Positions 7,919 to 25,600 of a stretch of 26,848 bases of DNA are shown piece after piece. A program made the translations under genes and the position numbers. The DNA comes from an uncultured Bdellovibrio sp. Lineage in GTDB: Bacteria > Bdellovibrionota > Bdellovibrionia > Bdellovibrionales > Bdellovibrionaceae. Each line of letters starts with the position of its first letter. The first letter of the stretch is position 1. The stretch is taken from positions 1-26,848 of the forward strand of contig CAWVRN010000038.1 of the NCBI GenBank assembly GCA_963932905.1, given 5' to 3'. The notes below the pieces were generated by a model, which saw only the letters and a list, made by a program, of their open reading frames with translations, made no database searches and was not told where the DNA came from.

Positions 7919-7933
7919 GCATCAACTGGACCC
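7919..7933 (-). promoter_or_regulatory. sigma54 promoter for the BON operon
   Basis: Minus GGGTCC-AGTTG-ATGC, correct spacing, 41 bp from the palindrome pair. Confidence 0.55.
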
Positions 7934-7969
7934 ACTTCAATTAAAGTAAAATTATACCTGAAATATAAA

Positions 7970-9589
7970 TCACGACATAATGTCCAATTTTTTGTCATTT
8001 TGTCTTTCGCTATTTTGTATCGCAAGCGCAAATTGATTTAGAATTTTTAAAAGGTTTTCTCGCGTCACTGGTTTGGTTAAATAAGCAGAGAACTCTTTAT
8101 CTGGAGTTTGATTTAAATCGGACGAAATTGCATTAGCCGTCAGCGCAATTATGGGTTTGGTAAAGCCCATACGTCGCAGGCGTCGAGTGGCCTCGTTGCC
8201 ATCTAATTTTGGCATTTGTATGTCCATAAGAATGATGTCATAAATTTCATTTGTTGCTTTCTGAACGCCGTCTTCGCCATCCCATGCGGTTTCTAGCTCG
8301 AAACCTGAATCTTTTAGGAAGTAGTTTATAATTTTTTGATTATCAAAAGAATCTTCAACTAAAAGAACCTTCAAGTTTCTATTTAGTTTATTACACCCGG
8401 GTTTCTGAGTTACTGGAGTTGGATTTTCGGGACTTGGGTAGTCCGTTAGTGCATAGGGCAGAGAGATTCTAAATGTGCTTCCTTTATCAACTTGGCTTTT
8501 TAATAGCACGACATCACCTTTAAGTTTTTGAGCCAGCTTTTTAGATAGATCCAATCCTAAACCAGTCCCCCCGTGCTTTCTAGATAGACTGACATCACCT
8601 TGTTCGAAGGGGTGAAATAGTTTTTCCTGATTTGAAAGAGTTATTCCAGGACCCGTGTCTTCAACGTCAATGATGAAAAAAGGAACATCATTAACGTTTT
8701 TTTTCAAACATAAGATTTTTATTGAACCTCGTTCCGTAAACTTAATGGCATTACCTAAAATATTGTTTACGATTTGTCGGACTCTAAGTGGATCAGATTT
8801 AAGAAACTGCGGAATTCCTGTGTCATACTCTAATGAAACTGAAACTGGCTTCGAAAGATACTTAGAACGTAGATCTTGGACTATCTCAGATAGCAATTTT
8901 CGCCAGTCGAAAAAGTCTTCCACAATTTGAATATGATCTGCTTCAATTTTAGATAAGTCTAAAATATCGTTAATCAGTTGAAGTGCACTTTCCCCATTTC
9001 TCTTAATAAATTTCAAAAAATCTTTTATTTCGGTTGGTTCATTGGATTCAAGTGCTAAATCAGTAAAGCCTAATATAGCGCTGAGTGGAGTGCGTATTTC
9101 ATGGCTCATATTAGCCAGAAACGCACTTTTAGCGCGACTAGAAGATTCCATTGCACGTTTTTCAGATTTTAGTTTTTGATTCTCTTCAATTTTCTCCTGA
9201 TCTATAGCACGCTTAATGCAATAACGAATAGAGCGTTCTAAAAGTTGAGGGGTAATTTGATCCTTGGATAAAAAATCAGAAGCGCCTTTGTTCATGGCGA
9301 TCACGTCGACATCGCGGTTTCCCTGACCTGTTAGCAAAATGATGCATTTTTTAACGTCATATTTTTTTATTTCATCTAAAATATCTAAGCCCGTTCTATA
9401 ATCAATGCGATAATCCACAAGATATACATCAGCCGACTGATTTTTTAAGGATTCAATTCCCGAGGTTGAATCACTGACCCAGCTTAAATTGTATTTTGTT
9501 CCTTTAACTTCATTCAAGAGCGATTGAATTAAAAAATAGTCATCTTGATCATCGTCAACTAAAACGACATTTATAGTATTATCGTTCAT
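7970..9589 (-). CDS. Hybrid histidine kinase (REC-HisKA-HATPase-REC)
   Basis: N-terminal REC (VVLVDDD..LVDY), H-box FLANMSHEIRTPL, NAIKFT, DTGPG, GTGLGL, C-terminal REC (LMDIQMP). Confidence 0.95.
   Translation of the reverse strand: MNDNTINVVLVDDDQDDYFLIQSLLNEVKGTKYNLSWVSDSTSGIESLKNQSADVYLVDYRIDYRTGLDILDEIKKYDVKKCIILLTGQGNRDVDVIAMNKGASDFLSKDQITPQLLERSIRYCIKRAIDQEKIEENQKLKSEKRAMESSSRAKSAFLANMSHEIRTPLSAILGFTDLALESNEPTEIKDFLKFIKRNGESALQLINDILDLSKIEADHIQIVEDFFDWRKLLSEIVQDLRSKYLSKPVSVSLEYDTGIPQFLKSDPLRVRQIVNNILGNAIKFTERGSIKILCLKKNVNDVPFFIIDVEDTGPGITLSNQEKLFHPFEQGDVSLSRKHGGTGLGLDLSKKLAQKLKGDVVLLKSQVDKGSTFRISLPYALTDYPSPENPTPVTQKPGCNKLNRNLKVLLVEDSFDNQKIINYFLKDSGFELETAWDGEDGVQKATNEIYDIILMDIQMPKLDGNEATRRLRRMGFTKPIIALTANAISSDLNQTPDKEFSAYLTKPVTRENLLKILNQFALAIQNSERQNDKKLDIMS
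7974..8004. promoter_or_regulatory. Paired activator sites (GACA-N3-TGTC type)
   Basis: GACATAATGTC 7974-7984 and GTCATTTTGTC 7994-8004, 20 bp apart, inside the 3' end of the hybrid kinase CDS. Confidence 0.65.
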
Positions 9590-9622
9590 TCATACCTTAC
9601 CTGTATTTTACAAATCGAAAGT

Positions 9623-9637
9623 GCAGACGAAAGGCCA
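9623..9637 (-). promoter_or_regulatory. sigma54 promoter for the hybrid kinase
   Basis: Minus TGGCCT-TTCGT-CTGC, correct spacing. Confidence 0.65.
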
Positions 9638-9677
9638 CAGCCAAATCAAAAAAAATACTAGCAGACGAGCAAGCCGA

Positions 9678-9726
9678 GACGCTTTGGCTATAGGAAATGA
9701 CAAAGTGGCAAATGGGTCATCTTGTC
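9678..9726. promoter_or_regulatory. Activator site cluster (GACA-N3-TGTC type)
   Basis: GACGCTTTGGC 9678-9688, GACAAAGTGGC 9699-9709 (21 bp apart), GTCATCTTGTC 9716-9726. Confidence 0.55.
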
Positions 9727-9762
9727 ATAAATTTTATTTAATATCATTTTTTATCGAAATAC

Positions 9763-10878
9763 TTAATTTAACAATGGCAGACGGATCACAAATTCTGATC
9801 CCTCGCCTAATTTACTAGTGGCAGAAATGTGTCCACCCCATGATTCCACAATTTTAAATGAAGTCGCCAAACCAAGGCCTGTGCCTTGGCCTATTTCTTT
9901 GGTAGTGAAAAATGGTTTGAATAAATTTCTTTGATTTTCATCAGAGATTCCACAACCTGTGTCCTTTACAGATAGTACGACTTCATCATTTTTTAATTCT
10001 GTTCTGATGATCACGTCGTGAGGCCGTGTCATTCCCTGTTTACGAGATTCATCAATAGCGTGAATAGCGTTGATGAGTATGTTTAGCAGTACTTGCCCGA
10101 GTGGGCCGGCTTCTGCCTTTACCATATTTGCGGCCGACAATTTTTTAATCAAATTGATATTGTTTCGCTCTAGTTCATGTTCGATCAAATTTAGAACGTC
10201 TTGAATAACTTGATTTATATCGACTGAGGCACCGGTCTCTGATTTCTGTTCACGCGCTAAATGCAGTAGGGAATTTACTAGTTTAGTAATACGATCAATT
10301 TGTGTTACAATTGTAGCTAGATCCTTTTTTAAAGCTTCATTACTTCCGGCTTTAGATTCAGCCAATTCAGCTCGACTTCGAATAATTCCCATCGGAGTAC
10401 CAATTTCGTGTGCTAGGCTAGATGCAAGAAGTCCCAGGGATGCCAATCTATCTTGTTGAATAATTTGCGCCTTACTTTCGCGCAATTCTTCCATGTCGTG
10501 CCGTTGCTTGATGGCATAGCGAATGGATCTTTCCAAAAGAGGACTTGTCAGTTGTCCTTTGACCAAATAATCGGATGCCCCGACGTGCATGGCTTTAATA
10601 TCTAGTTCAAAATCAATAAGGCCTGTCAGAAAAATGATGGGGCAGGAAAACATTTTGCCACGTGATTCACTTAATAATTCCAGACCGGTTTTCTCGCCCA
10701 GTCTATAATCTAATAGGCACGCATCGAACGTCTGTTCGTTCAGTGCAATTCGACCATCATTGTAATTTGATTTCCAGGTGACTTTGTATTTTGATGACAT
10801 CACATCATTTAATAAATCGCGGATATGCAAAAAATCGTCTTCGTCATCATCGATCAATAAGATGTGGAACTCTGTCAT
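9763..10878 (-). CDS. REC-histidine kinase (NtrB/AtoS-like transmitter)
   Basis: REC (ILLIDDD..LLDYRL), H-box LASLGLLASSLAHEIGTP, NAIHA, DTGCG, PFFTTK, GTGLGL. Confidence 0.95.
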   Translation of the reverse strand: MTEFHILLIDDDEDDFLHIRDLLNDVMSSKYKVTWKSNYNDGRIALNEQTFDACLLDYRLGEKTGLELLSESRGKMFSCPIIFLTGLIDFELDIKAMHVGASDYLVKGQLTSPLLERSIRYAIKQRHDMEELRESKAQIIQQDRLASLGLLASSLAHEIGTPMGIIRSRAELAESKAGSNEALKKDLATIVTQIDRITKLVNSLLHLAREQKSETGASVDINQVIQDVLNLIEHELERNNINLIKKLSAANMVKAEAGPLGQVLLNILINAIHAIDESRKQGMTRPHDVIIRTELKNDEVVLSVKDTGCGISDENQRNLFKPFFTTKEIGQGTGLGLATSFKIVESWGGHISATSKLGEGSEFVIRLPLLN

Positions 10879-11339
10879 TTTGTAACCTTTTTGGCACAGT
10901 TGGGAAGGGCTACTATTTCAAACCAGTACCGGCCAACATCACGCATGACTTGCACTAGCGATTCAAATTCAATGGGTTTGGTGATAAAAGAATTGGCGCC
11001 CAGGTTGTAGGATCGTACGATGTCTTCTTCAGCCTGTGACGTGGTCAATACAATCACTGGAATTTGATATAGATGAGGATGTTTTTTCAATTCAGTTAGT
11101 ACTTCGCGACCATCCATTTTTGGCATATTCAAATCTAGCAAGATCAAACCGGGCATTAGATTTTGACCGTCTTGTGACTGAGCCCATTTATCATGAAGAG
11201 TTTTTATTAGCGCTTCTCCATCATGAACAAACTGAAGTTCGTTCAACAATCGACTTTCCGTTAATGCTTCACGAATCATTTCGCAATCATCTAAATCGTC
11301 ATCGGCCACTAGGATTGGTATTGTATTATGGTCTCTCAT
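10875..11339 (-). CDS. Single-domain response regulator (Rcp1-like)
   Basis: ILVADDD, LILLDLNMPKMDGREVL, IPVIVLTTS, GANSFITKP; 4-nt overlaps with both neighbours. Confidence 0.95.
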   Translation of the reverse strand: MRDHNTIPILVADDDLDDCEMIREALTESRLLNELQFVHDGEALIKTLHDKWAQSQDGQNLMPGLILLDLNMPKMDGREVLTELKKHPHLYQIPVIVLTTSQAEEDIVRSYNLGANSFITKPIEFESLVQVMRDVGRYWFEIVALPNCAKKVTK

Positions 11340-12484
11340 ACCGGGATCTCCGTCGTTTGGGTTAGTGGAAGCAAAATAGAAAACGTGGCTCCTTGGTCAG
11401 GTTCTGATTTTGCCGTTATTATTCCACCATGACGGTCAACAATTTTACGGCAAACCGCTAGACCGATACCGGTTCCTTCGTATTCATGCCGTCCGTGAAG
11501 GCGTTGAAAAATTGTAAATATACGATCGACATATTTTTGATCAAATCCAATTCCGTTATCGGTTACGGTAATCAGGCACGCTTTCCCTGGTTTATTCAGC
11601 GTAGATGATTCTAAAATAGAGGCCGAGACCGTGACTTCGGGTTTGACATTTGGTTTATGAAATTTCAAAGCGTTGCTTATCAAATTTTGGAATAACTGAT
11701 GCATTTGAGTTGGATCGGCTTCGATGTTAGGTAAATCAGCTATTTGTACAGAACCGGAGGTTTGTTCTATGCGAACTTCTAGATCAGATTTAACTTGGTT
11801 TAAAATTTTATTTAAAGAAACGACTGAAAAAGGATTAGCTTTTGTCGTTACCCGTGAATAAGTGAGTAGGTCATTAATTAAAATCTGCATACGCTTAGCC
11901 GATGCCTGAACTCGTTCTAAATAGTCGAACGCTTCACTGGAAATAGTGTCCTTAGACTTAACCTTAACACGATCGGAAAATGTTTGTATTTTTCTAAGAG
12001 GCTCTTGTAGATCATGTGCCGCTATAGACGCGAAATCTTGTAATTCCTGATTGCTGATCTCAAGTTTTTTCGAATAGATTTTTAGGCGTTCTTCCGCCAA
12101 TTTACGTTCTGTGATTTCGTAACGGACGGATACATACTGTTCGGGTTTGCCTTCGTTATCCATAAATGGCACGATGGTCGTATTAACCCAATAGTAGGTG
12201 CCGTCTTTAGCTCGGTTCTTGATTTCGCCTTCCCAAGTTTTACCTTGGGAAATAGTTTTCCACATATCAATAAAAAATTCTTTAGGGTGATGATGGGAAT
12301 TGATAATTCTGTGCGTGTTTCCTAAAAGTTCTTCTTCTGAATATTTGGAAATAGCGCAGAACTTTTTATTAACGTACGAAATTTTTCCGCTTTTGTCGGT
12401 GATGGCAACGATGGCTGCTTCGTCAATTGCAGATTTTAAATGTAGGAAGTCTTCGCTGGATAGACCCTCAGTTGTTTTTTTCAT
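11336..12484 (-). CDS. Cytoplasmic PAS-domain sensor histidine kinase
   Basis: Likely start ATG 12484 (MKKTTEG); PAS with YVN..F, HHPKEFFIDMWKTISQGKTWEGEIKNRAKDGTYYWV; H-box AAHDLQEPLRKI; no TM segment. Confidence 0.93.
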   Translation of the reverse strand: MKKTTEGLSSEDFLHLKSAIDEAAIVAITDKSGKISYVNKKFCAISKYSEEELLGNTHRIINSHHHPKEFFIDMWKTISQGKTWEGEIKNRAKDGTYYWVNTTIVPFMDNEGKPEQYVSVRYEITERKLAEERLKIYSKKLEISNQELQDFASIAAHDLQEPLRKIQTFSDRVKVKSKDTISSEAFDYLERVQASAKRMQILINDLLTYSRVTTKANPFSVVSLNKILNQVKSDLEVRIEQTSGSVQIADLPNIEADPTQMHQLFQNLISNALKFHKPNVKPEVTVSASILESSTLNKPGKACLITVTDNGIGFDQKYVDRIFTIFQRLHGRHEYEGTGIGLAVCRKIVDRHGGIITAKSEPDQGATFSILLPLTQTTEIPV

Positions 12485-13871
12485 GTAATTCTTCCGGTGG
12501 TTCAGGGGTATCATCAGACACCATTCCATAAATACGTTCTTTTCTGTATAAAGTTCTGCGACTGATACCCAGAATTCGCGCCGCTTCGTCTTTTTTATTT
12601 TTGGCTTCACCCATGATCAGTTTGATATAACGTTCTTCCAGTTTTTCCAGAGTCGGCCGGTCAGAATGAAGTTGATCAATATTTTGCTGAGCTTCCTCTA
12701 GAGCACTACCAAGAATGACATTTTTTTCTATTAGTTTCCCAGTACTTAAAACAATTGCGCGTTCGATTACGTTTTCAAGCTCGCGAACATTTCCCGGCCA
12801 TGGGTGGGCCATCAAGACACTCATGGCTTCAGGTGTAGCGCCTTCAACGGTAGATCCATTTCTAATCGCAAATTTTTTGATAAAAGAGTCGACCAACATA
12901 GGAATATCTTCCAGCCGTTCACGCAGCGGTGGAACACGTATAGGTACGACATTTAATCGGTAAAATAAGTCTTCGCGGAACTTGCCGTCTTTCGCCATGA
13001 TTTTTAAATCCCGATGAGTCGCAGCGATAATGCGAACGTCAATGTCTTTATGAGTATTACTGCCAACGGCCCGTATTTGACGATCCTGTAGAACGCGCAG
13101 TAGTTTAGCTTGCAGTTGCAGACTCATGTCACCAATTTCATCTAGAAACAAAGTGCCGTGATTAGCTTCTTCAAACAGCCCTTTTTTATCGGATACGGCA
13201 CCTGTGAACGAGCCTTTCACATGACCAAATAATTCACTTTCTAATAAATGTTCCGGAATGGCCGTGCAGTTAATTGCAATAAACGGTTTATTTTTTCTGG
13301 GGCTGGCGTTGTGTAAAGCACGAGCCACCAATTCTTTTCCAGATCCACTTTCACCGGAAATCAAAACGCTTGCGGACGCAGGTGCCACAACTTTAACGAG
13401 TTCAAAAACAGAATTGATGGCAGGACTTTTTCCAACAATAGAATCAAGAGTAAAACTTTTAGTGAGTTCCTTTTTTAAACTCGCGTTTTCTTGTTTAAGA
13501 GAAACCCGCTCGCTGGCCCGTTTGACCAGAAGTTTCATTTCTTCGTTTTTGAATGGTTTTACAATATAATGATAGGCGCCCAGTTTCATGGCCTCGATTG
13601 CAGTTTCGATGGACCCAAACGCGGTCATCATAATTGAAACAATAGATGGATAATCGGTTTGAACCTTTTTAAGAAACATCAGGCCATCGATTTCTTTCAT
13701 TTTGTGATCGGTAATTAAAATGTGGGGAAGGTCGGTTTTGAATTTAAATAAGGCTTCCGCTGCCGACGTATACTGTGTGGTAATGTATCCTTCAGCTGAA
13801 AGAAGTTCCGCTACGACTCCGCCCATTTCTTTGTCGTCGTCAACAATTGCTACTTTTATCTTGTTTGCCAT
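12468..13871 (-). CDS. sigma54-dependent enhancer-binding response regulator (NtrC/AtoC family, REC-AAA+-Fis HTH)
   Basis: REC, Walker A GESGSGKE, ESELFGH..GSFTGA, LFLDEIG, WPGNVRELEN, HTH AARILGISRRTLYRK. Confidence 0.97.
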   Translation of the reverse strand: MANKIKVAIVDDDKEMGGVVAELLSAEGYITTQYTSAAEALFKFKTDLPHILITDHKMKEIDGLMFLKKVQTDYPSIVSIMMTAFGSIETAIEAMKLGAYHYIVKPFKNEEMKLLVKRASERVSLKQENASLKKELTKSFTLDSIVGKSPAINSVFELVKVVAPASASVLISGESGSGKELVARALHNASPRKNKPFIAINCTAIPEHLLESELFGHVKGSFTGAVSDKKGLFEEANHGTLFLDEIGDMSLQLQAKLLRVLQDRQIRAVGSNTHKDIDVRIIAATHRDLKIMAKDGKFREDLFYRLNVVPIRVPPLRERLEDIPMLVDSFIKKFAIRNGSTVEGATPEAMSVLMAHPWPGNVRELENVIERAIVLSTGKLIEKNVILGSALEEAQQNIDQLHSDRPTLEKLEERYIKLIMGEAKNKKDEAARILGISRRTLYRKERIYGMVSDDTPEPPEELHEKNN

Positions 13872-13908
13872 ATCTTTCCTAATACGTTTGTTTGCTTATG
13901 TTAGCCCA

Positions 13909-13923
13909 TCAACCTAAATGCCA
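13909..13923 (-). promoter_or_regulatory. sigma54-like promoter (TTGA variant) for the regulator operon
   Basis: Minus TGGCAT-TTAGG-TTGA, 38 nt upstream of ATG 13871. Confidence 0.5.
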
Positions 13924-14029
13924 AAAAGCCTGACCAACGACATTTTGGGAACCCAAGTATAAATGCTTAATTTTATAAGCAAAAATAGATCGCGTGTTTA
14001 GGATAGGTGTAATCTGAAATGCACCTAGT

Positions 14030-14071
14030 GACAACTTGTCTGCTATTTTAAGCGAACGATGACAAGTTGTC
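14030..14071. promoter_or_regulatory. Paired perfect activator palindromes
   Basis: GACAACTTGTC 14030-14040 and GACAAGTTGTC 14061-14071, 31 bp apart, between divergent genes. Confidence 0.75.
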
Positions 14072-14113
14072 ACAAAACTATCCGTAATAGAGCTTTATAT
14101 TCTTTTTCGCCGT

Positions 14114-14128
14114 TGGCGAGGCTCTTGC
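14114..14128 (+). promoter_or_regulatory. sigma54 promoter
   Basis: TGGCGA-GGCTC-TTGC. Confidence 0.7.
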
Positions 14129-14179
14129 GAAGATATCTTAACAAAGTACCCAAGTTCGTGGGTCAATACGGAGAATAAT

Positions 14180-14587
14180 TTGAAACCCTCACCGCACATT
14201 CAAAAGTATATGACTTTTCTGCCTAAAACTATCAACCACGATCAAACCATCGGTCATGCCATAAGTTTAATGAAAAAACTCCATATTCGGCATCTTCCCG
14301 TAATGAAAAATAATAAACTCATGGGCATCTTAACAGATCGAGATATCAGTTTAGTATTGCGGTTCATAGCGTCTAACCCAGACAAAATTCGCGTGGAAGA
14401 TGCCTGTTCGCCGCATCCCTATACTACCAGCCCAGGTACTCCGTTAGCAGACGTCGTGAGTTATATGGCTGAACATACCATTGGATCGGCCATCATCGTT
14501 GATAATGGAACCCTCGTGGGAATTTTCACCGAAGTCGATGCATTTCGTGCCATCGCTGACTTACTGGAAACCAGACTTAAAGCATAA
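14180..14587 (+). CDS. CBS-pair (Bateman) protein
   Basis: IRHLPV..GILTDRDI and GSAIIVDNGTLVGIFTEVD; TTG start after GGAG. Confidence 0.92.
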   Translation: MKPSPHIQKYMTFLPKTINHDQTIGHAISLMKKLHIRHLPVMKNNKLMGILTDRDISLVLRFIASNPDKIRVEDACSPHPYTTSPGTPLADVVSYMAEHTIGSAIIVDNGTLVGIFTEVDAFRAIADLLETRLKA

Positions 14588-14604
14588 ACAAAATGGGAGG
14601 TAGC

Positions 14605-15030
14605 ATGAAACTTGTAGATCGAATTAGTCACGTGTTGATGGATAGTTTAATTGTAACGTCTATTGCCTTTATCGCTGTTTCTTCAATGGCCTTTTCAGGG
14701 AAGCAATCAGAGTCTATACCATTTCAAGAGTTTCAAGATGATATGCGCAAGGAAGGTCAGTTCCTAACGGTACATTTGTCGTTGGGAAATCCAATCCGAG
14801 TCTTTATTGTTGGTAAGGAAGAAGCAAAAATCGACGTATCTAAATTAGATATCACCATAAGACGCTTAAACCCCTATCCTGGGAAACTTCTAAAGTTAGA
14901 TAGGTACGATAATTACGTTGTAGTAAATGATCTTGGTGAAATGCAGAAGGACGCGGAACTTGAAATCAAATTAAAATCTAACGACAAGACTGAAAATTTT
15001 AAATTTAAGTTAAAACAAAAAGTCCCTTAA
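14605..15030 (+). CDS. Hypothetical exported or membrane-anchored protein
   Basis: ATG 14605 after GGAGG; N-terminal hydrophobic stretch, beta-rich remainder; lies within the operon. Confidence 0.7.
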   Translation: MKLVDRISHVLMDSLIVTSIAFIAVSSMAFSGKQSESIPFQEFQDDMRKEGQFLTVHLSLGNPIRVFIVGKEEAKIDVSKLDITIRRLNPYPGKLLKLDRYDNYVVVNDLGEMQKDAELEIKLKSNDKTENFKFKLKQKVP

Positions 15031-15040
15031 GGAGTACGCT

Positions 15041-16417
15041 TTGGATGGAAAGAAAAAATTAACGATACAATTCTTAGGAGCGGCCAGTACTGTTACAGGA
15101 TCAAAATATTTAATAAGTAATGGCACCAACAATTTATTAATCGACTGTGGATTATTTCAAGGATTAAAATCGTTACGCTTAAAAAATTGGGATGAATTTC
15201 CGATTGACCCATCTAAGATTGATGCCATCTTGCTTACCCATGCGCATTTAGATCACTCCGGCTATATTCCAAGATTAATAAAAAGGGGATTTCGAGGAAA
15301 AATTTTCTCGACGGCGGCAACCAAAGATTTATGTCAAATCTTACTAACCGATGCCGGCTATCTAGCCGAGGAAGAAGCCGAATATCTAAATAAACACAAA
15401 CGCTCCAAGCACAAACCGGCACTCCCCTTATTTACTTTTGAAGATGCGCAGAAGTCGATTGAATATTTTCAAGCCGTAAATTTTAATTTCGAATTCAATC
15501 TAAATGACGAAATTAGCTTTCAATTTAGGTATGCCGGACACATTCTGGGAGCCGCATCGATTATTTTAAGGGTCGGCGATATTAAAATCGGGTTTACGGG
15601 GGACATTGGTCGACCGCAAGATCCGATTTTTTATTCTCCCAGAGAATTGCCCGCAGTGGACTATCTTATCACTGAGTCCACCTATGGAAATAGGAAACAC
15701 GTTGATAGCGACCCAATAAGCGAGCTTGAGAAGTGCATTGTAGAAACCGTAGCACGCGGAGGCAGTGTCATTATACCTTCCTTTGCGGTCGGGCGGGCAC
15801 AAAGTCTGATGTATTATTTATGGAAGTTAAAACTTGAAAATAAAATTCCCAACATTCCGATGTATCTAAATAGCCCGATGGCTACTAATGCGAATGCGGT
15901 GTGGACGCAGTATCACGAGTTACATAGACTGAATGGTCAAGAATGTAAAGATGTGTGCGGAATAGTAAAGTACATTCAGGGCGTAGAGGAATCTAAGGCA
16001 TTAAACGAGCAAACGACACCGATGGTGATTATTTCTGCAAGTGGTATGCTGACGGGTGGACGTATACTACATCATATAAAGCAATTTGGTCCAGACGAGA
16101 AAAATACAATTCTGTTGACCGGGTTTCAAGCGGCGGGCACTCGAGGCGAGGCTCTGCTTAACGGTGCTAAGCAAATTAAAATTCATGGTGAGTATGTGGA
16201 TATTAAAGCAAAAGTTAAAATGCTAGATAATATTTCTGCCCATGCCGACTATTCAGAAATCGTTGAATGGTTTAAGCGTAGTCAAATATCGCCCAAGCGG
16301 GTATTTGTCACCCATGGTGAACCTACGGCTGCGGATGAAATGCGAAAACGATTGAATGAATCCTTAAACTGGAATTGTATCGTTCCGCTTCTGAATGAAT
16401 CCTTCACATTAGAATAA
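15041..16417 (+). CDS. MBL-fold beta-CASP ribonuclease (CPSF73/Ysh1-like family)
   Basis: FLGAA..VTGS, THAHLDHSG, AGHILG, FTGDIG, ESTYG, SAHAD, THGE; TTG start after AAGGAG. Confidence 0.93.
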   Translation: MDGKKKLTIQFLGAASTVTGSKYLISNGTNNLLIDCGLFQGLKSLRLKNWDEFPIDPSKIDAILLTHAHLDHSGYIPRLIKRGFRGKIFSTAATKDLCQILLTDAGYLAEEEAEYLNKHKRSKHKPALPLFTFEDAQKSIEYFQAVNFNFEFNLNDEISFQFRYAGHILGAASIILRVGDIKIGFTGDIGRPQDPIFYSPRELPAVDYLITESTYGNRKHVDSDPISELEKCIVETVARGGSVIIPSFAVGRAQSLMYYLWKLKLENKIPNIPMYLNSPMATNANAVWTQYHELHRLNGQECKDVCGIVKYIQGVEESKALNEQTTPMVIISASGMLTGGRILHHIKQFGPDEKNTILLTGFQAAGTRGEALLNGAKQIKIHGEYVDIKAKVKMLDNISAHADYSEIVEWFKRSQISPKRVFVTHGEPTAADEMRKRLNESLNWNCIVPLLNESFTLE

Positions 16418-16447: not shown

Positions 16448-16912
16448 TTATGCCATGCGGGTGTAATCATGTGATGTGTGTCGTTCTTTTGTACCTACTT
16501 GGGTACGACAGAGGTTGCCAAGACGATTAATTTCATTTCCAAGGAGTGCGACAAGGTCGTCCATCGATACAACTCCTTTTATTTTTTCGTCCTGGTCCAA
16601 GACCAAAAGTCGTCGAACTCGATTTTCTTCCATTTTTTTAATCGAGTCTTCTATTAAAGTAGTCTCTGTTACAGTGATAAGAGAAGTATTCATTATTTTT
16701 TCGACTTTTTCTATTCGTGTGTCGATGTCGTTCTTAATGCATTTGATAACGATATCCCTATCTGTAACTATACCTACTGGTTTACCTTCAGAATATCGCT
16801 TAGTAATCACAACCATGCCTACACTTTTTTCGTCCATGATTCGTGCGACATCTTGAATTGTCGTATCCTCGAAAACAGTGACGACGTCGCTGCCTAAAAA
16901 TTTTTTAATCAT
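16448..16912 (-). CDS. CBS-pair protein
   Basis: GIVTDRDIV, VRRLLV, GVVSMDDL; likely start ATG 16912 after AAGGAAAG. Confidence 0.92.
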   Translation of the reverse strand: MIKKFLGSDVVTVFEDTTIQDVARIMDEKSVGMVVITKRYSEGKPVGIVTDRDIVIKCIKNDIDTRIEKVEKIMNTSLITVTETTLIEDSIKKMEENRVRRLLVLDQDEKIKGVVSMDDLVALLGNEINRLGNLCRTQVGTKERHTSHDYTRMA

Positions 16913-16996: not shown

Positions 16997-17028
16997 GACA
17001 AAGCGACAAGGTGGCGTGACAAAATGTC
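16997..17028. promoter_or_regulatory. Paired activator sites shared by divergent sigma54 promoters
   Basis: GACAAAGCGAC 16997-17007 and GACAAAATGTC 17018-17028, 21 bp apart; 41 bp from each flanking promoter. Confidence 0.7.
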
Positions 17029-17068: not shown

Positions 17069-17083
17069 TGGTCCGGCGGTTGC
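17069..17083 (+). promoter_or_regulatory. sigma54 promoter
   Basis: TGGTCC-GGCGG-TTGC. Confidence 0.7.
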
Positions 17084-17108
17084 TGTTAGGAGAAACATAC
17101 AAAAGGAT

Positions 17109-17630
17109 ATGAAAATGAAAATGAATGTTGGAATTCACTCGTCCCACAACGTGGTGTATGTAAATCGATTAGATACGTTGCAAAAGGCCTATCACCTGAT
17201 GACCAAAATTTCGACTCGTCATCTGCCGGTAGTGGACGAGAGTGGAATGGTGATTGGGATGTTGTCCGATCGCGATATTATTCGCGCGATGAAAAAACCA
17301 ATCGGCAGCGATTGGTATGCGGTACCATCCAATCCTGAATTTAATCCAGATGAAATTGTACAAAATTATATGAGTTGGCCGATCGGAACGATTGATGAAG
17401 AAGCATCCCTGACTCAAGCTGCGCAGATAATGCTAGATAGAAAAATTTCTGCTTTGGCTGTGACACAAAAGGATCAAGTCATTGGAATTGTAACCACTGA
17501 AGACCTTTTAAAGGCATTCATCAATGACCATAAGACTTCTCTTAGCGATGTAAAAGATAGAATCGTTGGTGCCGTCTACCGATCACCAGTTGGAAGTATC
17601 ATTCAAAGTTTATCAAATGCAGGGATATAA
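17109..17630 (+). CDS. CBS-pair protein with C-terminal extension
   Basis: TRHLPVVD..GMLSDRDI, KISALAV..GIVTTEDLL; start ATG 17109 after AAGGA. Confidence 0.9.
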   Translation: MKMKMNVGIHSSHNVVYVNRLDTLQKAYHLMTKISTRHLPVVDESGMVIGMLSDRDIIRAMKKPIGSDWYAVPSNPEFNPDEIVQNYMSWPIGTIDEEASLTQAAQIMLDRKISALAVTQKDQVIGIVTTEDLLKAFINDHKTSLSDVKDRIVGAVYRSPVGSIIQSLSNAGI

Positions 17631-17650
17631 AAATTATGAAAGGAAAAAGT

Positions 17651-18049
17651 ATGTCAGATTATATTGTATGGTTGGATTCGGAAAAAGCTCATGTTTTTGA
17701 ACTTAATGCTGAATTGAAACAATCTAAATTACAGAAAGAAAATTTCGAACACCAAATTAAACATAAAAAAGGAAATCATGAACAGCACCTTAATGAAATT
17801 CTTTTTAAAAAGATCGCAGAACGCCTAACTGAAAGTAATAAAATATTACTGATGGGGCCCGGCCTAGCAAAAAATCAGTTTCGTGTTTACTTAGATGAAC
17901 ATCACACTCATTCTTTGGGTAAGCATGTGGTGGGTGTTGAAACATGCGATCATCCAACTGATAATCAAATATTGGCGATCGCGCGTAAGTTTTTTGCTCA
18001 TTATGATTTATTCAATGAACCAATTTTAGCAACTGGATCTAGGGATTAA
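17651..18049 (+). CDS. aeRF1/pelota middle-domain-like protein ('translational machinery protein' / baeRF-like)
   Basis: IVWLDSEKAHVF, ILLMGPGLAKNQF, VVGVETCDHPTDNQILAIARKFF; His-rich loop. Confidence 0.75.
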   Translation: MSDYIVWLDSEKAHVFELNAELKQSKLQKENFEHQIKHKKGNHEQHLNEILFKKIAERLTESNKILLMGPGLAKNQFRVYLDEHHTHSLGKHVVGVETCDHPTDNQILAIARKFFAHYDLFNEPILATGSRD

Positions 18050-18053
18050 AGCG

Positions 18054-18452
18054 ATGAAAAAAGCAGCTCCAAAAGTTCAGAAGTATATGACTCAGTCACC
18101 AAAAAGCATTGGCTATGATCGCCCACTGTCTCAAGCGATGGGTGTCATGAATGAAATGAGAGTGCGCCACTTGCCTGTGTTAAAAGAAGGTAAACTGATT
18201 GGGATTTTAACCGACCGGGATGTTAAACTCGTAGCTAGTTTCGAAGAAATCGATCCAGACAAAATTTTGGTGGAAGAAGCATGCACCTATGATCCGTATT
18301 GTGTTGCACCAACGACTGACCTAAATGAGGTCGTTGATCACATGGCCAGAAAAAAATATGGTTGTGCCGTAGTAATGGATAGCGGTAAGCTGGTCGGTAT
18401 CTTAACAGAAACGGATGTTTACAAAGCATTTGTCGATGTTCTTAATCATTAG
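18054..18452 (+). CDS. CBS-pair protein, paralog of 14180-14587
   Basis: VQKYMT..PK, VRHLPV..GILTDRDV, PDKI.VEEAC, GKLVGILTETD. Confidence 0.92.
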   Translation: MKKAAPKVQKYMTQSPKSIGYDRPLSQAMGVMNEMRVRHLPVLKEGKLIGILTDRDVKLVASFEEIDPDKILVEEACTYDPYCVAPTTDLNEVVDHMARKKYGCAVVMDSGKLVGILTETDVYKAFVDVLNH

Positions 18453-18677
18453 CTGTATAGACTTAAACGCCGTGGGTACTTCTACACGGTAGTTTCGATT
18501 AAATCGGACAATTTGTAGTAATGGCACCTATTGAATAGAGTTGCGAGGTCGATCTCGTTGACATTCTTTCCAAGAGTGCGGTTCAAATGGCTGAGACGCA
18601 TATGACCAAGCGGCGCACAAGAGGATTTGTTTTGGAAGCAAAAATTGAGGCCTCAATATTGAAAAGTTTAATCATTG

Positions 18678-19325
18678 ATGACTTATTCACTTAAAAAGTT
18701 GCTTGTGCTTGTTCATACAGTGACGCTGCTGTCGTTAATTTTGACATATGTCGAAAGTGCTACAGCAACTCAGAGTACATGTGTAGAGCTTTACCAGGCA
18801 CAAAAACAAGGGGCAAGAAATCCATTGTACTCATGGCTTAGCCAAAGAAAAGAGAGGCATCCTCGTCGGTGGAACACGATAACGCAAATAACAGTAAGTG
18901 GTAAAACTTATCACGAACTCACTAGTCTTGGAGATGGTGGCGAGGGAGAAGTTTATTTCGGCCAAAGCAATACGGGTCCAGCAGCAATTAAAGTCTTCCA
19001 CAGCCGGGAAAATTTTAAAAAAGCGAAAAAAGAATATAAAATCTATGCACGGTGGCTACCAAAGTTAATAACCGCTGATGAAGCTACACACACAATTGTC
19101 ATGGAATATAAAGAAGGTATAGATGTGTACACAATTGTAAAACATGGTGACGAGTTCGGCATCAGCGACAAACAAATAGAAAGTATAAAGCTGCGTTGGG
19201 AAAAATGGGCTGGAGAACAAAAGACTACACTTTTTCCTTTGTTTCGCCGACGTCCCACTTTTCTGTGGCAAAATGTAATTTACTCTTTTACTGAGGATCG
19301 ATTTTATTTGATAGATGCTTTTTAA
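18678..19325 (+). CDS. Exported minimal protein-kinase-fold protein
   Basis: Signal-peptide-like N-terminus; LGDGGEGEVY, AAIKVF, IVMEY, NVIY..YLIDAF at the C-terminus. Confidence 0.7.
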   Translation: MTYSLKKLLVLVHTVTLLSLILTYVESATATQSTCVELYQAQKQGARNPLYSWLSQRKERHPRRWNTITQITVSGKTYHELTSLGDGGEGEVYFGQSNTGPAAIKVFHSRENFKKAKKEYKIYARWLPKLITADEATHTIVMEYKEGIDVYTIVKHGDEFGISDKQIESIKLRWEKWAGEQKTTLFPLFRRRPTFLWQNVIYSFTEDRFYLIDAF

Positions 19326-19512
19326 CCCTACGTTAATTGGCACTGAACAATCTGCGCTTCTCAGCTTTTCCGACCAACCTTTACAAAGGTAATTCGAAAT
19401 TTCTCTCCTAATATCAAAGCGAAAGTTTAGCCATTGTTTCAACTGCAATCAGACGAAGTCGAAATCGCCTTGCGAGAAGTGTCAGGTCGATTTTAAGTTT
19501 ATACTCACTAGT

Positions 19513-21576: not shown

Positions 21577-21584
21577 TTTGTCCC

Positions 21585-21914
21585 CTATCTAAAAGACGGA
21601 AGTGTTTGAAGATTTAAATGTTGATTACCAAACTTTGGTAGCAGCAGGTAAAGAACACCATTTAGATAAATAGTTTTAATTCCTTTTCCACGAGGCACCG
21701 CCCGAAAAATAACTTCCTTGGTTCCAGAATTATCTTTTTGGCTTTCTATCAACAATTGCTTTTTTGTTGTCACGATTTGAGTTGCGATGGCTGGTATAGA
21801 AGGAATATCTACTGCCACCAAATAATGAGTATCAATTTCAGCTAATGAAAACAGTGCTGGATTTTTTTTTGATAAGTTTTTGAAATTGAATGTGGCTAAT
21901 CCTTTTTTACCCAT
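21585..21914 (-). CDS. Degenerate Hsp20/alpha-crystallin-like protein
   Basis: [13 protein letters not shown] and [16 protein letters not shown] match the sHSP beta3 and beta8-9 motifs; ATG 21914 after AGGAGG. Confidence 0.65.
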
Positions 21915-21949
21915 TTTTCCTCCTAGTATTTTGATAAAAATTTTAAATT

Positions 21950-21964
21950 GCAATGTATAAGCCA
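21950..21964 (-). promoter_or_regulatory. sigma54 promoter
   Basis: Minus TGGCTT-ATACA-TTGC(A). Confidence 0.75.
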
Positions 21965-22016
21965 ATCGAAATATGCGGATAGTACCGACAGATAACATCT
22001 GATTGATCTAAGCTGA

Positions 22017-22048
22017 GTCATTCTGTCACGTGTGCTGGACGAAACGTC
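22017..22048. promoter_or_regulatory. Paired activator sites between divergent sigma54 promoters
   Basis: GTCATTCTGTC 22017-22027 and GACGAAACGTC 22038-22048, 21 bp apart. Confidence 0.65.
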
Positions 22049-22090
22049 TCAGTAATTGGATCTAAGCCTAGAATTTGAGGTACTTGCATA

Positions 22091-22105
22091 TGGCCTCTTG
22101 GATGC
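22091..22105 (+). promoter_or_regulatory. sigma54 promoter
   Basis: TGGCCT-CTTGG-ATGC. Confidence 0.65.
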
Positions 22106-22130
22106 TAGTTGTTACACGCAAGGGGGTATT

Positions 22131-22319
22131 GTGACACTTGATCAAGAAAAGAAAAACAAATTTAAGAACGGTTTTATAAAACGTTTACCACTTGCGATTT
22201 TAGGGATGATTCTTTTAACCGCTGGCTTAATCTTCGATAGATGGTGGTGGCAGGCAGGATTTGGATTCCTATTTGTTATAGCCATCGAGGCCTTGTTTTT
22301 ATATGTAGTTTTAGATTGA
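22131..22319 (+). CDS. Small two-TM membrane protein (62 aa)
   Basis: GTG 22131 after AGGGGG; basic N-terminus and two hydrophobic helices; has its own sigma54 motif. Confidence 0.65.
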   Translation: MTLDQEKKNKFKNGFIKRLPLAILGMILLTAGLIFDRWWWQAGFGFLFVIAIEALFLYVVLD

Positions 22320-22323
22320 GCCA

Positions 22324-22354
22324 GTTAATGCACCTTGCTGCAAGGTGCATTAAC
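22324..22354. terminator. Perfect palindrome between convergent genes, likely bidirectional terminator/stabiliser
   Basis: gttaatgcaccttg-ctg-caaggtgcattaac, 14-bp stem. Confidence 0.7.
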
Positions 22355-22360
22355 CGGTAT

Positions 22361-23401: not shown

Positions 23402-23428
23402 ATTTACTCCGATATTTTGAAGTGCATG

Positions 23429-23905
23429 TTATTGAACTTTGACTTCTTTTGCTTTGGTGGCTTCTGTTTTTGGCGCCACGATCGTCAATACACCGGCCTC
23501 ATAGTGAGCTTGGACTTGATTTTCATTAATGGCCTGAGGTAATGAAAACGATCTCATAAACGATCCATAGTACGTTTCATTGAGTGTATGCTTTGCGTCC
23601 GATTCATCGCGTTTATCTTTGCGTTCACCGCTGATAGTAATTTGATTTGCCTCGACTTCAATTTTAATGTCTTCTTTTTTGATCCCTGGGACGTCGATTT
23701 GAAAACTGTATTCTTTTTTGTTTTCCTTAATGCTGCAAGCGGGAACGAAAGCCGCATCTAAGTTTTCGGGCATTAAAGCAAGATCAAATGGATTTTGACG
23801 AAACCAACGGTCCATACCGCTTTCGAAATCATTAAATGATTTTAGCGGACTAAAAAAGCGATTACGTTGGCTTGGCAATGTCATTTTTGAAACTAAATTT
23901 TTCAT
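23429..23905 (-). CDS. Hsp20/alpha-crystallin small heat shock protein
   Basis: DVPGIKKEDIKI, ISGERK, YGSFMRSFSLP, AHYEAGVLTIVAPK, C-terminal VKV; start ATG 23905 after AAGGAG. Confidence 0.95.
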   Translation of the reverse strand: MKNLVSKMTLPSQRNRFFSPLKSFNDFESGMDRWFRQNPFDLALMPENLDAAFVPACSIKENKKEYSFQIDVPGIKKEDIKIEVEANQITISGERKDKRDESDAKHTLNETYYGSFMRSFSLPQAINENQVQAHYEAGVLTIVAPKTEATKAKEVKVQ

Positions 23906-23959
23906 ACATACTCCTTTGTGTGAACGTGTTCGTTCTGGTTGGTTGTATGGAAAAAGAAA

Positions 23960-23974
23960 GCAATAGTAAGGCCA
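23960..23974 (-). promoter_or_regulatory. sigma54 promoter for the Hsp20-USP operon
   Basis: Minus TGGCCT-TACTA-TTGC(T). Confidence 0.75.
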
Positions 23975-24016
23975 GGTTTCTATCTGCGATAGAATTAACA
24001 AGAAGAAAATTGACAA

Positions 24017-24048
24017 GACAACTCGACTCAGGACATTGACAATCTGTC
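24017..24048. promoter_or_regulatory. Paired activator sites
   Basis: GACAACTCGAC 24017-24027 and GACAATCTGTC 24038-24048, 21 bp apart. Confidence 0.7.
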
Positions 24049-24448
24049 ATGATTTTTCTGATTTTAGCCTATTAAGATCGACTTCCACTTTTTTAACTTC
24101 GATTTCTAAAGCAGAAATTTCGGGAGCAATCAAAGCGGTGACTAGAAAAGCCATATAGGACCAGACAAATAAAGTTCCAAATAGCATCATCGAAATTACG
24201 GTAAGTTTGCCTCCGATGGTTTGGGGCGCATAAGTATTATATCCGATTGAAGTTGTTAAGCTTGTGCTCCATAGTAAACAGTCTAGGTAGTCTAATTTAT
24301 TTGGAATTATTGGGGACTCGAAATGATATATCAAAAGGCTGCCTAATAATATGACTAAATTTCCAAGAAAGGTGAGTATCCAAAATAGTGGAGTTTTAAA
24401 AAGCGCCTTTATTCGAATTTTGTAGTTGTAATGTCTAAATCGATTCAT
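24047..24448 (-). CDS. 2-TM potassium-channel-family pore protein with a non-canonical filter
   Basis: TM1 - YLDCLLWSTSLTTSIGYNTYAPQTIGGK - TM2 - short coiled coil (KcsA-like layout). Confidence 0.8.
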   Translation of the reverse strand: MNRFRHYNYKIRIKALFKTPLFWILTFLGNLVILLGSLLIYHFESPIIPNKLDYLDCLLWSTSLTTSIGYNTYAPQTIGGKLTVISMMLFGTLFVWSYMAFLVTALIAPEISALEIEVKKVEVDLNRLKSEKS

Positions 24449-24474
24449 TGATTTTTAGCCAGCAAATAAGATGC

Positions 24475-25413
24475 CTATTCTATTTTTTGAATTTTAACTT
24501 TTTGATACATTTTAGATATTTCATTTCTGCTTCCTAAGTTCATACCGGGTTCAAATAAGGTGGCTGCGGCGGCGGCAAGTCCTCGTTTTAATACTTGCGA
24601 TTCGTCCACATAGTTTTTATTTAGCTCGTAAACCATAGCTCCTACCAAGGAATCGCCGGCACCAACCGTCGATTTTATTTTTATGTTAGGAACCTTGCCA
24701 AAATAGATATTTTTTTGTCCAACTAAAAGTGTGCCTCCTTCCACAGAGGAAACGCAGATATATTGAACGTCATTTAAATATCTTTTAGCTTTTTCAATTA
24801 CAGAACCTATCGATTTAACGTGTGAACCAGTGAATTCTTGAAACTCTTCTAAATTAGGTTTGATAAGAAAAGGTTTTGCCTGAATCACGGCTCTTAATAT
24901 TTCCCCGGGACAATCTACAACTGCTTTTATATTTTTTCTATGAGAAATTTTTAAAAGGTATACAATGTCTTTAGATGTAAAACCATTTGGAAGAGAACCT
25001 CCCAGTAACAAAAATGATATATTTTTTTGAGCCTCGTACAAACGAAACAATTTACTTTTTTCAGAGGCAGAAACTTTAGGCCCAGGGAAACTTAGACGGG
25101 TCTGGTTGTGATTTAACTCGTTGCCGACTGTGACATTGATCCGTGAAGGGCGTTTGATTTGAATAAATTCAGTATTAAGATTTTCTTTTTTCATCAAAAA
25201 ATTAATCTCGTCGCCTGTGCTGCCGCCCAGAAATCCAGACAGGACCACGGTCGCCTTAAGACGACTTAAAATTCTTGCTGAATTAATTGAGTTTCCTCCT
25301 GGTGATCTAACAGCGTTGTATACATAAGATTTTTCATTCGGTTTCAGGTCTTTGACAAATCCACTAAGATCCAGTGCTGGGTTGGGAGTGATGGTAAATA
25401 TTTTTTTCTTCAT
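24475..25413 (-). CDS. pfkB: 1-phosphofructokinase/PfkB family hexose kinase
   Basis: TITPNPALD, PGGNSIN.AR, GGSLP, LIKPNLEE, STVGAGDS. Confidence 0.92.
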   Translation of the reverse strand: MKKKIFTITPNPALDLSGFVKDLKPNEKSYVYNAVRSPGGNSINSARILSRLKATVVLSGFLGGSTGDEINFLMKKENLNTEFIQIKRPSRINVTVGNELNHNQTRLSFPGPKVSASEKSKLFRLYEAQKNISFLLLGGSLPNGFTSKDIVYLLKISHRKNIKAVVDCPGEILRAVIQAKPFLIKPNLEEFQEFTGSHVKSIGSVIEKAKRYLNDVQYICVSSVEGGTLLVGQKNIYFGKVPNIKIKSTVGAGDSLVGAMVYELNKNYVDESQVLKRGLAAAAATLFEPGMNLGSRNEISKMYQKVKIQKIE

Positions 25414-25481
25414 AAATTTCTCTACTTTTTACATTCAGAGTAATCCTTTTTCTTAATAGATCAATATGAGAAAATCATTGA

Positions 25482-25522
25482 GTCGAATTGTCTCGTAAAA
25501 TTGAATTTTTTGACAACTTGTC
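25482..25522. promoter_or_regulatory. Paired activator sites
   Basis: GTCGAATTGTC 25482-25492 and GACAACTTGTC 25512-25522, 30 bp apart. Confidence 0.7.
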
Positions 25523-25585
25523 TTTTTTTCTTGGTTAGTTTTCTCGTTTTGATACCTTGGGTGCTTTCATATTTGTTTTTACATT

Positions 25586-25600
25586 TGGCATACGGCCTGC
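25586..25600 (+). promoter_or_regulatory. sigma54 promoter
   Basis: TGGCAT-ACGGC-CTGC(T). Confidence 0.7.

What the first reader, a model, noticed from the sequence alone, without database searches (positions are those of the whole stretch)
7919..25600. Strict promoter grammar: phased GACA-N3-TGTC pairs placed 41-43 bp from nine sigma54 promoters
Seen: GG-N10-GC promoters at 7919(-), 9623(-), 14114(+), 16942(-), 17069(+), 21950(-), 22091(+), 23960(-) and 25586(+). Each has a pair of 11-bp palindromes (consensus G[A/T]C[A/G]-N3-[T/C]G[T/A/G]C): 7974/7994, 9678/9699, 14030/14061, 16997/17018, 22017/22038, 24017/24038 and 25482/25512. Pair spacings are 20, 21, 31, 21, 21, 21 and 30 bp, i.e. two or three helical turns. 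The offset from the nearest site edge to the first base of the -24 motif is 41, 41, 43, 41, 41, 53, 43, 43 and 64 bp, a fixed value plus 0-2 turns. Established: bEBPs bind tandem dimer sites, usually about 80-150 bp upstream. The proximal sites here are closer than usual, and single pairs serve two divergent promoters (16997-17028 is exactly 41 bp from both). Inference: this is the binding motif of the local activator and defines its regulon from sequence alone.
Basis: partly seen in the sequence, partly recalled or inferred. Interest (0 to 1): 0.85.

Follow-up and report, generated by a model that had tools for sequence, protein, structure and literature searches.

The report
Sigma-54 low-oxygen regulon enhancer boxes
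The paired palindromes are real and are most likely the docking sites of the neighbouring sigma-54 activator, which switches on a block of stress and low-oxygen genes in a Bdellovibrio-like bacterium; this works like a system described in Myxococcus but uses a different box, a different sensor and sites that sit unusually close to the promoter.

Summary
Observation confirmed: 9 promoters, 7 site pairs and all offsets are as stated; 500 shuffles give at most 1 pair and no promoter-plus-pair. The GACA-N3-TGTC box follows one Bdellovibrionota activator clade (helix RRTLYRKE). Offsets are helically phased in genomes with the orthologue (53 of 67 in phase) but not in those without (16 of 32). Targets are CBS, USP, Hsp20 and BON genes and, in relatives, the cbb3 oxidase operon; the adjacent kinase has an Aer/NifL-type PAS. 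It works like M. xanthus NmpRSTU (PMC11841059), with a different box and sensor. Corrections: phasing and 2-3-turn pairs are general (NmpR; D. vulgaris reanalysis). The regulon extends to three other contigs, and a second, receiver-less activator shares the helix. What remains unusual: proximal sites at about -72, with no IHF consensus (0 of 56), about half a turn off the Desulfovibrio register; and a missed tenth promoter, the activator's own, lacking the -12 C in 31 of 31 detectable cases. Binding is untested. The scan noted this kind of regulon before on other DNA.

The parts
12468..13871 (-). NtrC-family bEBP (receiver, AAA+ with GSFTG loop, Fis-type HTH); proposed binder of the box
   Evidence: Pfam; below the cut-off of every NCBIfam equivalog shown, best AtoC; helix
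11336..12484 (-). PAS histidine kinase (likely start 12484; ORF caller gives 12610); Aer/NifL-type PAS, FAD binding inferred
   Evidence: TIGR02938 NifL stretch 59-177
10875..11339 (-). single-domain receiver protein (NmpT-like position)
   Evidence: present in 25 of 32 orthologue loci
9763..10878 (-). receiver-HisKA-HATPase kinase (NmpS/LvrB architecture); proposed kinase of the bEBP
   Evidence: LvrB model matched over 1-369, below cut-off; 25 of 32 loci
7970..9589 (-). receiver-kinase-receiver hybrid; target of promoter 9637(-)
13908..13923 (-). tenth sigma54-like promoter, for the activator operon itself; -12 base is A, not C; shares pair 14030/14061 at offsets -117/-148
14030..14071 (.). 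site pair (31-bp period) shared by 14114(+) and 13923(-)
14114..14129 (+). sigma54 promoter of the CBS / unknown / beta-CASP metallo-hydrolase operon (14180-16417)
   Evidence: conserved divergent CBS gene in 17 of 32 loci
7974..8004 (.). site pair (20-bp period), inside the 3' end of the hybrid kinase ORF
7918..7933 (-). sigma54-like promoter (GGG start) of the BON gene 7476-7865
   Evidence: paralogous promoter on C34
9678..9726 (.). site pair (21-bp period) plus a third site at 9716
9622..9637 (-). sigma54 promoter of the hybrid kinase
   Evidence: same arrangement in L005, L014, L015
16997..17028 (.). site pair (21-bp period) symmetric between two divergent promoters
   Evidence: same in L001-L003
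16941..16956 (-). sigma54 promoter of the CBS gene 16448-16912
17069..17084 (+). sigma54 promoter of the CBS / unknown / CBS operon (about 17109-18452)
22017..22048 (.). site pair (21-bp period) shared by 21964(-) and 22091(+)
21949..21964 (-). sigma54 promoter of the unknown / SDR / acetyl-CoA hydrolase-transferase run (21914-19513)
22091..22106 (+). sigma54 promoter of a small membrane-protein ORF ending at 22319
24017..24048 (.). site pair (21-bp period)
23959..23974 (-). sigma54 promoter of the Hsp20 / USP run (23905-22361)
25482..25522 (.). site pair (30-bp period) between pfkB (-) and the HemG-like flavodoxin gene (+)
25586..25601 (+). sigma54 promoter of the HemG-like flavodoxin gene 25613-26788

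Best explanation
[quoted passage not shown] One Fis-type HTH dimer binds each 11-bp box, and two boxes 2 or 3 turns apart put two dimers on one DNA face to nucleate the AAA+ ring. The proximal box is centred about 72-74 bp upstream of the predicted start, at the lower limit reported for NtrC. At that distance the ring reaches sigma54-RNAP only from one helical register, hence the fixed value plus whole turns, probably over a slightly bent spacer without IHF. A palindromic pair serves both directions. Input: the PAS kinase senses the redox state of the respiratory chain and relays through the receiver-kinase to the bEBP, with the lone receiver as a sink. Output: CBS, USP, Hsp20, BON, HemG-like and related genes (cbb3 oxidase in relatives), plus the activator's own operon (positive feedback). 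Shown: sequence anatomy, statistics, conservation, co-occurrence. Inferred: binding (about 0.8), low-oxygen/redox signal (about 0.65), relay order, IHF independence.
For: Shuffles and tiles. Orthologue loci against control loci, 74/187 vs 8/263. Genome-wide single-site+promoter hits: 67 in 28 orthologue genomes, R=0.60 at 10.5 bp, 53 in phase; 32 in 28 others, R=0.18, p=0.36. The strict pair+promoter pattern occurs in 10 of 251 genomes, reversed control 0. Of the 9 besides G000, 5 have the orthologue, 1 has it split over contigs, 2 have the sister clade, and 1 (83% complete) has neither. Of 23 bEBPs in the genome, only this one and the C34 protein carry the RRT[LI]YRK helix. A kinase match lies in 28 of 32 orthologue loci, the receiver and the receiver-kinase in 25 each. 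Box pairs lie before the ccoI-cbb3 operon in 10 of 17 orthologue genomes (one is the query locus), in 0 of 15 others of the same family, and sites occur in the 4 remaining genomes, all of which carry a 50-53% sister-clade bEBP. The PAS matches Aer and NifL structures. IHF consensus is found in 0 of 56 spacers, and A/T periodicity has p=0.0015. rpoN is present.
Against: No binding, TSS or expression data. The receiver-less C34 bEBP sits inside a second box-marked island. This genome's own cbb3 operon has no box (L203), and 7 of 17 orthologue genomes lack one there. Most box-bearing ccoI genes belong to a second ccoI type near the activator, so those cases are not independent. Related genomes inflate all p-values. 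The pfkB operon has no recognisable sigma54 element beside its pair. IHF/HU genes are present, and IHF sites can be degenerate. The same box occurs in an unrelated soil lineage at ordinary distances, so closeness is not a property of the box.
Confidence: 0.7

Rival explanations
1. The box is shared. The receiver-less bEBP on C34 binds it too and drives some or all of these promoters, alone or in mixed rings, so the motif defines a two-activator regulon in this genome.
For: Same helix (ILGVSRRTIYRK), and the window bEBP is its best paralogue, 45%. It lies among BON, USP and phosphoribosyltransferase genes with boxes at the same offsets.
Against: Found in only 2 of 251 genomes at E<=1e-100, whereas the box tracks the window-type clade in many genomes that lack it. 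Its tree position is unsure (long branch).
Confidence: 0.15
2. Right activator, other signal: the relay reports general energy or redox state, or a life-cycle stage such as prey starvation, not oxygen as such. The direction of the relay may also be inverted.
For: Aer-type PAS domains follow respiration through FAD (PMC9668731, start of abstract in a search listing). Targets include OsmC-like and secreted proteins. Receiver phosphorylation silences NmpS (PMC11841059 section 3) but activates LvrB (PMC13269768 abstract). This genome's cbb3 operon has no box.
Against: cbb3 operons in relatives, a nitrate-reductase-like molybdoenzyme in L032, and nitrite-reductase and oxidase genes beside the same box in another lineage all point to oxygen limitation. 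The gene set matches the lxa and DosR regulons (PMC3721108 passages).
Confidence: 0.2
3. The box is bound by a non-bEBP factor (a repressor or architectural protein), and the promoters are activated from elsewhere.
For: A LysR gene lies in the window. The box contains a -35-like TGACA, and one sigma70-like match overlaps the 14061 site.
Against: The sigma70-like match is at chance level (1 found, 1.2 expected). The boxes lie upstream of sigma54 elements in helical phase and do not overlap them. The box co-occurs with one bEBP helix. LysR is absent from all 32 orthologue loci.
Confidence: 0.05
4. Chance pattern from a degenerate consensus fitted after the fact.
For: The single-site consensus is loose: 1428 matches in the genome.
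Against:: the offsets recur in DNA that was not used to define the motif.
Confidence: 0.01

Closest known systems
NmpRSTU / NmpR oxygen-utilisation regulon of Myxococcus xanthus (PMC11841059; abstract, passages and sections 3, 13, 16, 22 read; figures and supplement not seen)
   Same: Sensor kinase, receiver-only protein, receiver-kinase and NtrC-like activator; U-T-S gene order; paired palindromic sites with 20-, 29-30- or 39-bp period; autoregulation; CBS, USP and P-type ATPase + cbb3 targets.
   Different: Box GACA-N3-TGTC, not GCGCA-N5-TGCGC; sensor is an Aer/NifL-type PAS, not a protoglobin; one receiver, not two; all four genes lie in one operon; orthology to NmpR untested.
E. coli NorR enhancers (PMC2831303, passages)
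   Same: 11-bp inverted repeat with N7 core (GT-N7-AC), repeated, feeding a sigma54 promoter.
   Different: NorR needs three sites and IHF and has a GAF sensor; here the commonest half-site is GACA, sites come in pairs, and the activator has a receiver.
Desulfovibrio vulgaris sigma54 regulome (PMC4641369; passages, whole promoter table, 119 of 128 Hildenborough site rows)
   Same: Most sites lie within 100 nt of the promoter; pairs are 19-33 bp apart; nearest-site centres are phased at 10.5 bp (my reanalysis).
   Different: None of the motifs seen is GACA-N3-TGTC (nearest: DVU1949, with an N4 core). Median centre -83 against -46/-48 here; phase 1.2 against 5.6-6.4, about half a turn apart. The orp promoters need IHF (PMC3897727, passages).
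Burkholderia lxa locus and mycobacterial DosR regulon (PMC3721108, passages)
   Same: Clustered USP, alpha-crystallin, phospholipid-binding (BON-type, recalled) and pfkB-type genes for low-oxygen survival.
   Different: The lxa motif is Fnr/Anr-like (TGA-N6-TCA), and DosR is not a bEBP (recalled); here sigma54 and a bEBP are used.

Membership tests
sigma54-dependent bEBP regulon | GG-N10-GC elements oriented before operon heads | tested here: met
   one starts GGG; the tenth lacks the -12 C
sigma54-dependent bEBP regulon | rpoN in the genome | tested here: met
   TIGR02395 over cut-off
sigma54-dependent bEBP regulon | activator with AAA+ sigma54-interaction domain, GAFTGA-type loop and HTH | tested here: met
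   PF00158, PF02954, PF00072; GSFTG variant, common among this genome's bEBPs
sigma54-dependent bEBP regulon | repeated palindromic UAS upstream of the promoter | tested here: met
sigma54-dependent bEBP regulon | activator binds the UAS and transcription depends on it | not testable with these tools
   needs EMSA and reporter assays
NmpRSTU system | protoglobin sensor kinase (NmpU) | tested here: not met
   the kinase has a PAS domain and no globin hit
NmpRSTU system | GCGCA-N5-TGCGC box | tested here: not met
   matrix from the window sites gives GACA-N3-TGTC
NmpRSTU system | receiver-HisKA-CA kinase and receiver-only protein in the relay | tested here: met
   one receiver instead of two
NmpRSTU system | activator orthologous to NmpR | not tested
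NmpRSTU system | autoregulation; CBS, USP and cbb3 targets | tested here: inconclusive
   own promoter, CBS and USP present by sequence; cbb3 boxed in 10 of 17 orthologue genomes but not in this one
NorR regulon | GAF-domain activator, three GT-N7-AC sites, NO-detoxification targets | tested here: not met
   receiver domain, pairs, other targets
lxa / Fnr-type low-oxygen locus | TGA-N6-TCA motif and a Crp/Fnr regulator | tested here: not met
   no Crp/Fnr domain among 30 window proteins; different motif

The most novel reading that the evidence does not exclude
This clade uses a close-contact, IHF-free mode of sigma54 activation, with the dimer pair fixed about half a turn off the register of looped promoters. 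It also primes its own positive-feedback loop through a deliberately imperfect -12 element: the activator's promoter has A, T or G at -12 in 31 of 31 detectable cases. The -12 C is reported as 96% conserved and as keeping basal transcription in check (PMC4551910, passages). If so, this is a natural, selected use of leaky sigma54 initiation to start a switch-like low-oxygen programme in predatory bacteria. Against it: the divergent CBS promoter is also non-C in 15 of 25 cases, about one in ten D. vulgaris promoters is non-C, non-C may simply weaken the promoter, and a sigma70-like site could supply the basal level.
Probability: 0.25. Interest if true: 0.72.

Novelty: new variant of a known kind. 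Interest (0 to 1): 0.45.

Why it matters
It gives a testable binding motif and regulon for an unstudied activator clade found in about a tenth of sampled Bdellovibrionales-type genomes (28 of 250 at 59% identity or more). It also points to how aerobic predators may ride out low oxygen. The nine-plus natural promoters at the minimum enhancer distance are a ready series for testing how close, and on which helix face, a bEBP can act without IHF. The conserved non-C -12 of the activator's own promoter makes a testable case of how an autoregulated sigma54 activator gets its first molecules. The basic mechanism and the gene set are known from NmpR, lxa and DosR, so the surprise is moderate.

Tried and rejected
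RNA runs: none was listed; this is no evidence either way. IHF consensus: none in the spacers, and only 1 of 18 spacers examined from the metagenome hits had one, so the idea that the distal register equals IHF use is not supported by sequence. Alternative parse TGTC-N9/10-GACA as the dimer site: rejected, because 30/31-bp pairs and lone boxes keep the phase. Viral scan (loose pattern): 7 of 119, chance level; no phage-borne case pursued. A PilR identity (recalled lead) found no support in the listing. Literature searches listed no paper on this motif or on a Bdellovibrio sigma54 stress regulon; subscription papers are not searched. Wang, Guo and Gralla 1999 and a bEBP review were not held; the -12 claim rests on PMC4551910. 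PMC13682980 (passages) and PMC6615313 (passages; Clostridiales UAS mostly at 100-250 bp) did not change the reading. The tree kept only 29 rows, because my Walker A and loop filters dropped the rest. It supports the orthologue clade (97/97) but does not place the C34 protein. No structure or complex prediction was run. Orthology to NmpR stays open.
Full report
Check of the observation. Counted from the T of TGG, sites start at -71/-51, -89/-72/-51, -84/-53, -72/-51, -72/-51, -84/-63, -74/-53, -74/-53 and -104/-74. A matrix from the 14 sites, symmetrised, has invariant G, C, G, C and the consensus GACA-N3-TGTC. The window holds 7 pairs and 9 promoter+pair cases. In 500 dinucleotide shuffles the means are 0.01 and 0; 139 tiles of the rest of the genome give at most 1 and 0. 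Single boxes are common (1428 in 4.55 Mb) and not enriched in non-coding DNA elsewhere, so the signal lies in pairing and position.

What the region is. The window is contig C38 of a 98.6% complete genome with 23 bEBPs and rpoN. Its activator has 32 relatives of 67-90% identity, all in Bdellovibrionota records. The promoters head genes for four CBS proteins, USP, Hsp20, BON, a beta-CASP hydrolase, an SDR, an acetyl-CoA hydrolase/transferase, a HemG-like flavodoxin and a hybrid kinase. This resembles the lxa and DosR gene sets (PMC3721108, passages). Downstream of the activator lie a PAS kinase, a lone receiver and a receiver-kinase, matched in 28, 25 and 25 of the 32 loci. The PAS matches 3EWK (E 2e-53; its identity as the FAD sensor MmoS is recalled), Aer and NifL chains.

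Held-out tests of the motif. In the 32 orthologue loci, 74 sites fall 45-105 bp upstream of 187 sigma54-like elements, peaking at -50..-53, -61..-63, -71..-75, -82..-84 and -92..-97; in 48 loci of other bEBPs, 8 do so for 263 elements. A strict pair+promoter pattern hits 10 of 251 genomes of the order, with reversed control 0. The orthologue (59% or more) is in 28 of 250. A single-site pattern with a free 35-65 bp gap gave 67 hits in 28 orthologue genomes (R=0.60 at 10.5 bp; 53 in the 12 in-phase positions of 31) and 32 hits in 28 genomes without (R=0.18, p=0.36; 16 in phase). The second group is diluted by a sister clade of 50-55% identity with the same RRTLYRKE helix, often beside a similar PAS kinase and cbb3 genes. 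Upstream of the cbb3-linked P-type ATPase, box pairs occur in 10 of 17 orthologue genomes (one is the query locus; this genome is among the 7 without). They occur in 0 of 15 same-family genomes without the orthologue (one of these truncated). One or two boxes occur in the other 4, which all carry a 50-53% sister-clade activator. Related genomes are not independent, and many boxed ccoI genes form a second type close to the activator.

Beyond the window. The same grammar marks promoters on C34 (three pairs and a lone site, in a second BON/USP/phosphoribosyltransferase island), C2 (-74/-54) and C15 (-72/-52, OsmC-like gene). C34 encodes a 321-aa bEBP without a receiver that shares the helix and has one close relative in 250 genomes. 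The motif therefore does not single out one activator in this genome, though its spread follows the window-type clade.

Is the geometry unusual? Partly. Pairs 2-3 turns apart are established: NmpR-bound promoters have gaps of 14-15, 5 or 24 between 15-bp sites, and off-phase pairs were mostly not bound (PMC11841059 section 16). From the tables of PMC4641369 (119 of 128 Hildenborough rows seen) I took 41 promoters with their nearest upstream predicted site. I dropped ncRNA rows, operons without a listed promoter, downstream sites, several distant cases, and two predicted sites within about 30 bp of the promoter, which would be closer than ours. The centres are phased (34 within 125 bp: R=0.51, p=2e-4), median -83, closest -51. 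So phasing is general. The proximal centres here, -46/-48 (about -72/-74 from the start), are closer than all 41, and they match the 70-bp minimum cited for NtrC (PMC7408454, passage); the usual range is 100-140 bp (PMC2709558, passage). The register differs by about half a turn (5.6-6.4 against 1.2). No IHF consensus lies in 56 distinct spacers, which show 10.5-bp A/T periodicity (p=0.0015), although IHF/HU genes exist. In metagenomes the same box pair sits between divergent sigma54 promoters of a 57-60% GC soil lineage, at -119/-98 and -108/-87 and in a register nearer the Desulfovibrio one (2.3). Its neighbours are CBS, oxidase and nitrite-reductase genes, plus a NorCB-like pair (label from my reading; no NCBIfam hit for the larger protein). 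Four other high-GC hits use the close register, for which the pattern selected.

A missed promoter. 52 nt before the activator's start lies TGGCA-N6-TTGAT (T at 13923, minus strand), served by the 14030/14061 pair at -117/-148. Scoring without the -12 and -11 bases, 31 of 39 distinct orthologue upstream regions have a match of at least 7 of 8, and the -12 base is A 23, T 7, G 1, C 0. Other boxed promoters in these loci have C in 16 of 25 (this group includes some divergent partners), and the divergent partner has C in 10 of 25. PMC4551910 (passages) states that this C is 96% conserved and keeps basal transcription in check. A leaky self-promoter would prime the feedback loop; a merely weaker promoter, or a sigma70-like site seen at chance level, are the plainer readings.

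Mechanism and comparison. The best model is a redox-sensing phosphorelay ending in a bEBP that binds box pairs and activates nearby sigma54 promoters, including its own. It works like NmpRSTU, a lead from the scan's earlier notes that I checked in the paper. It is not a member by two defining features, sensor and box, and orthology is untested. Relay polarity is open, since receiver phosphorylation inhibits NmpS but activates LvrB. Searches listed no description of this motif or regulon. Figures and the unread supplement of PMC11841059 may give NmpR site-to-promoter distances that bear on how unusual the closeness is.

Verdict. A real feature and a new variant of a known kind. The close register and the non-C self-promoter are the points worth a bench test.

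Noticed in passing
G000:C34:26800-39200 (L081): Second stress island (BON, USP, phosphoribosyltransferase, host-attachment/baeRF12, AAA_28, OsmC-like, PAS-GAF kinase, flavodoxin) with a receiver-less 321-aa bEBP and the same boxes.
   Followed up: partly
G000:C15:28446-28520 (L082): Box pair before an OsmC-like gene, behind a YeeE-type/TauE/metallo-hydrolase sulfur cluster; similar boxed promoters occur in G199, G239, G030 and G132.
   Followed up: partly
G000:C2:344465-344600: Box pair at -74/-54 before a 230-aa secreted protein with no Pfam or NCBIfam hit; similar proteins lie behind boxed promoters in L005, L016, L020 and L031.
   Followed up: no
L311, L283, L249, L264 and related metagenome loci: A soil lineage (57-60% GC) uses the same box pair between divergent sigma54 promoters for NorCB-like genes (or a copper nitrite reductase) and a CBS/oxidase operon; its activator was not seen.
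   Followed up: partly
L208-L214, L232: cbb3-operon promoters often read TCGCA, TAGCA or AAGCA at -12 instead of TTGCA.
   Followed up: no
window 6879-6894 (+): Sigma54-like element with non-C -12 before the 101-aa ORF at 6908; no box pair nearby.
   Followed up: no
   Followed up: no
window 18675-19325 (+): Small kinase-like ORF (weak MAD6 kinase match) inside the island, without a box.
   Followed up: no
window 14593-15030, 17636-18049, 21585-21914: Three island ORFs without a confident family; the first two recur in 6 and 4 orthologue loci.
   Followed up: no
G000:C2:9991-10100: 22-bp tandem repeat array that scores with the matrix; unrelated to promoters.
   Followed up: no
G000:C33:401-901 and C52:11725-12225: Two near-identical bEBP copies on different contigs.
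   Followed up: no
L032:10499-14902: Nitrate-reductase-like molybdoenzyme alpha/beta genes next to the orthologue island.
   Followed up: partly
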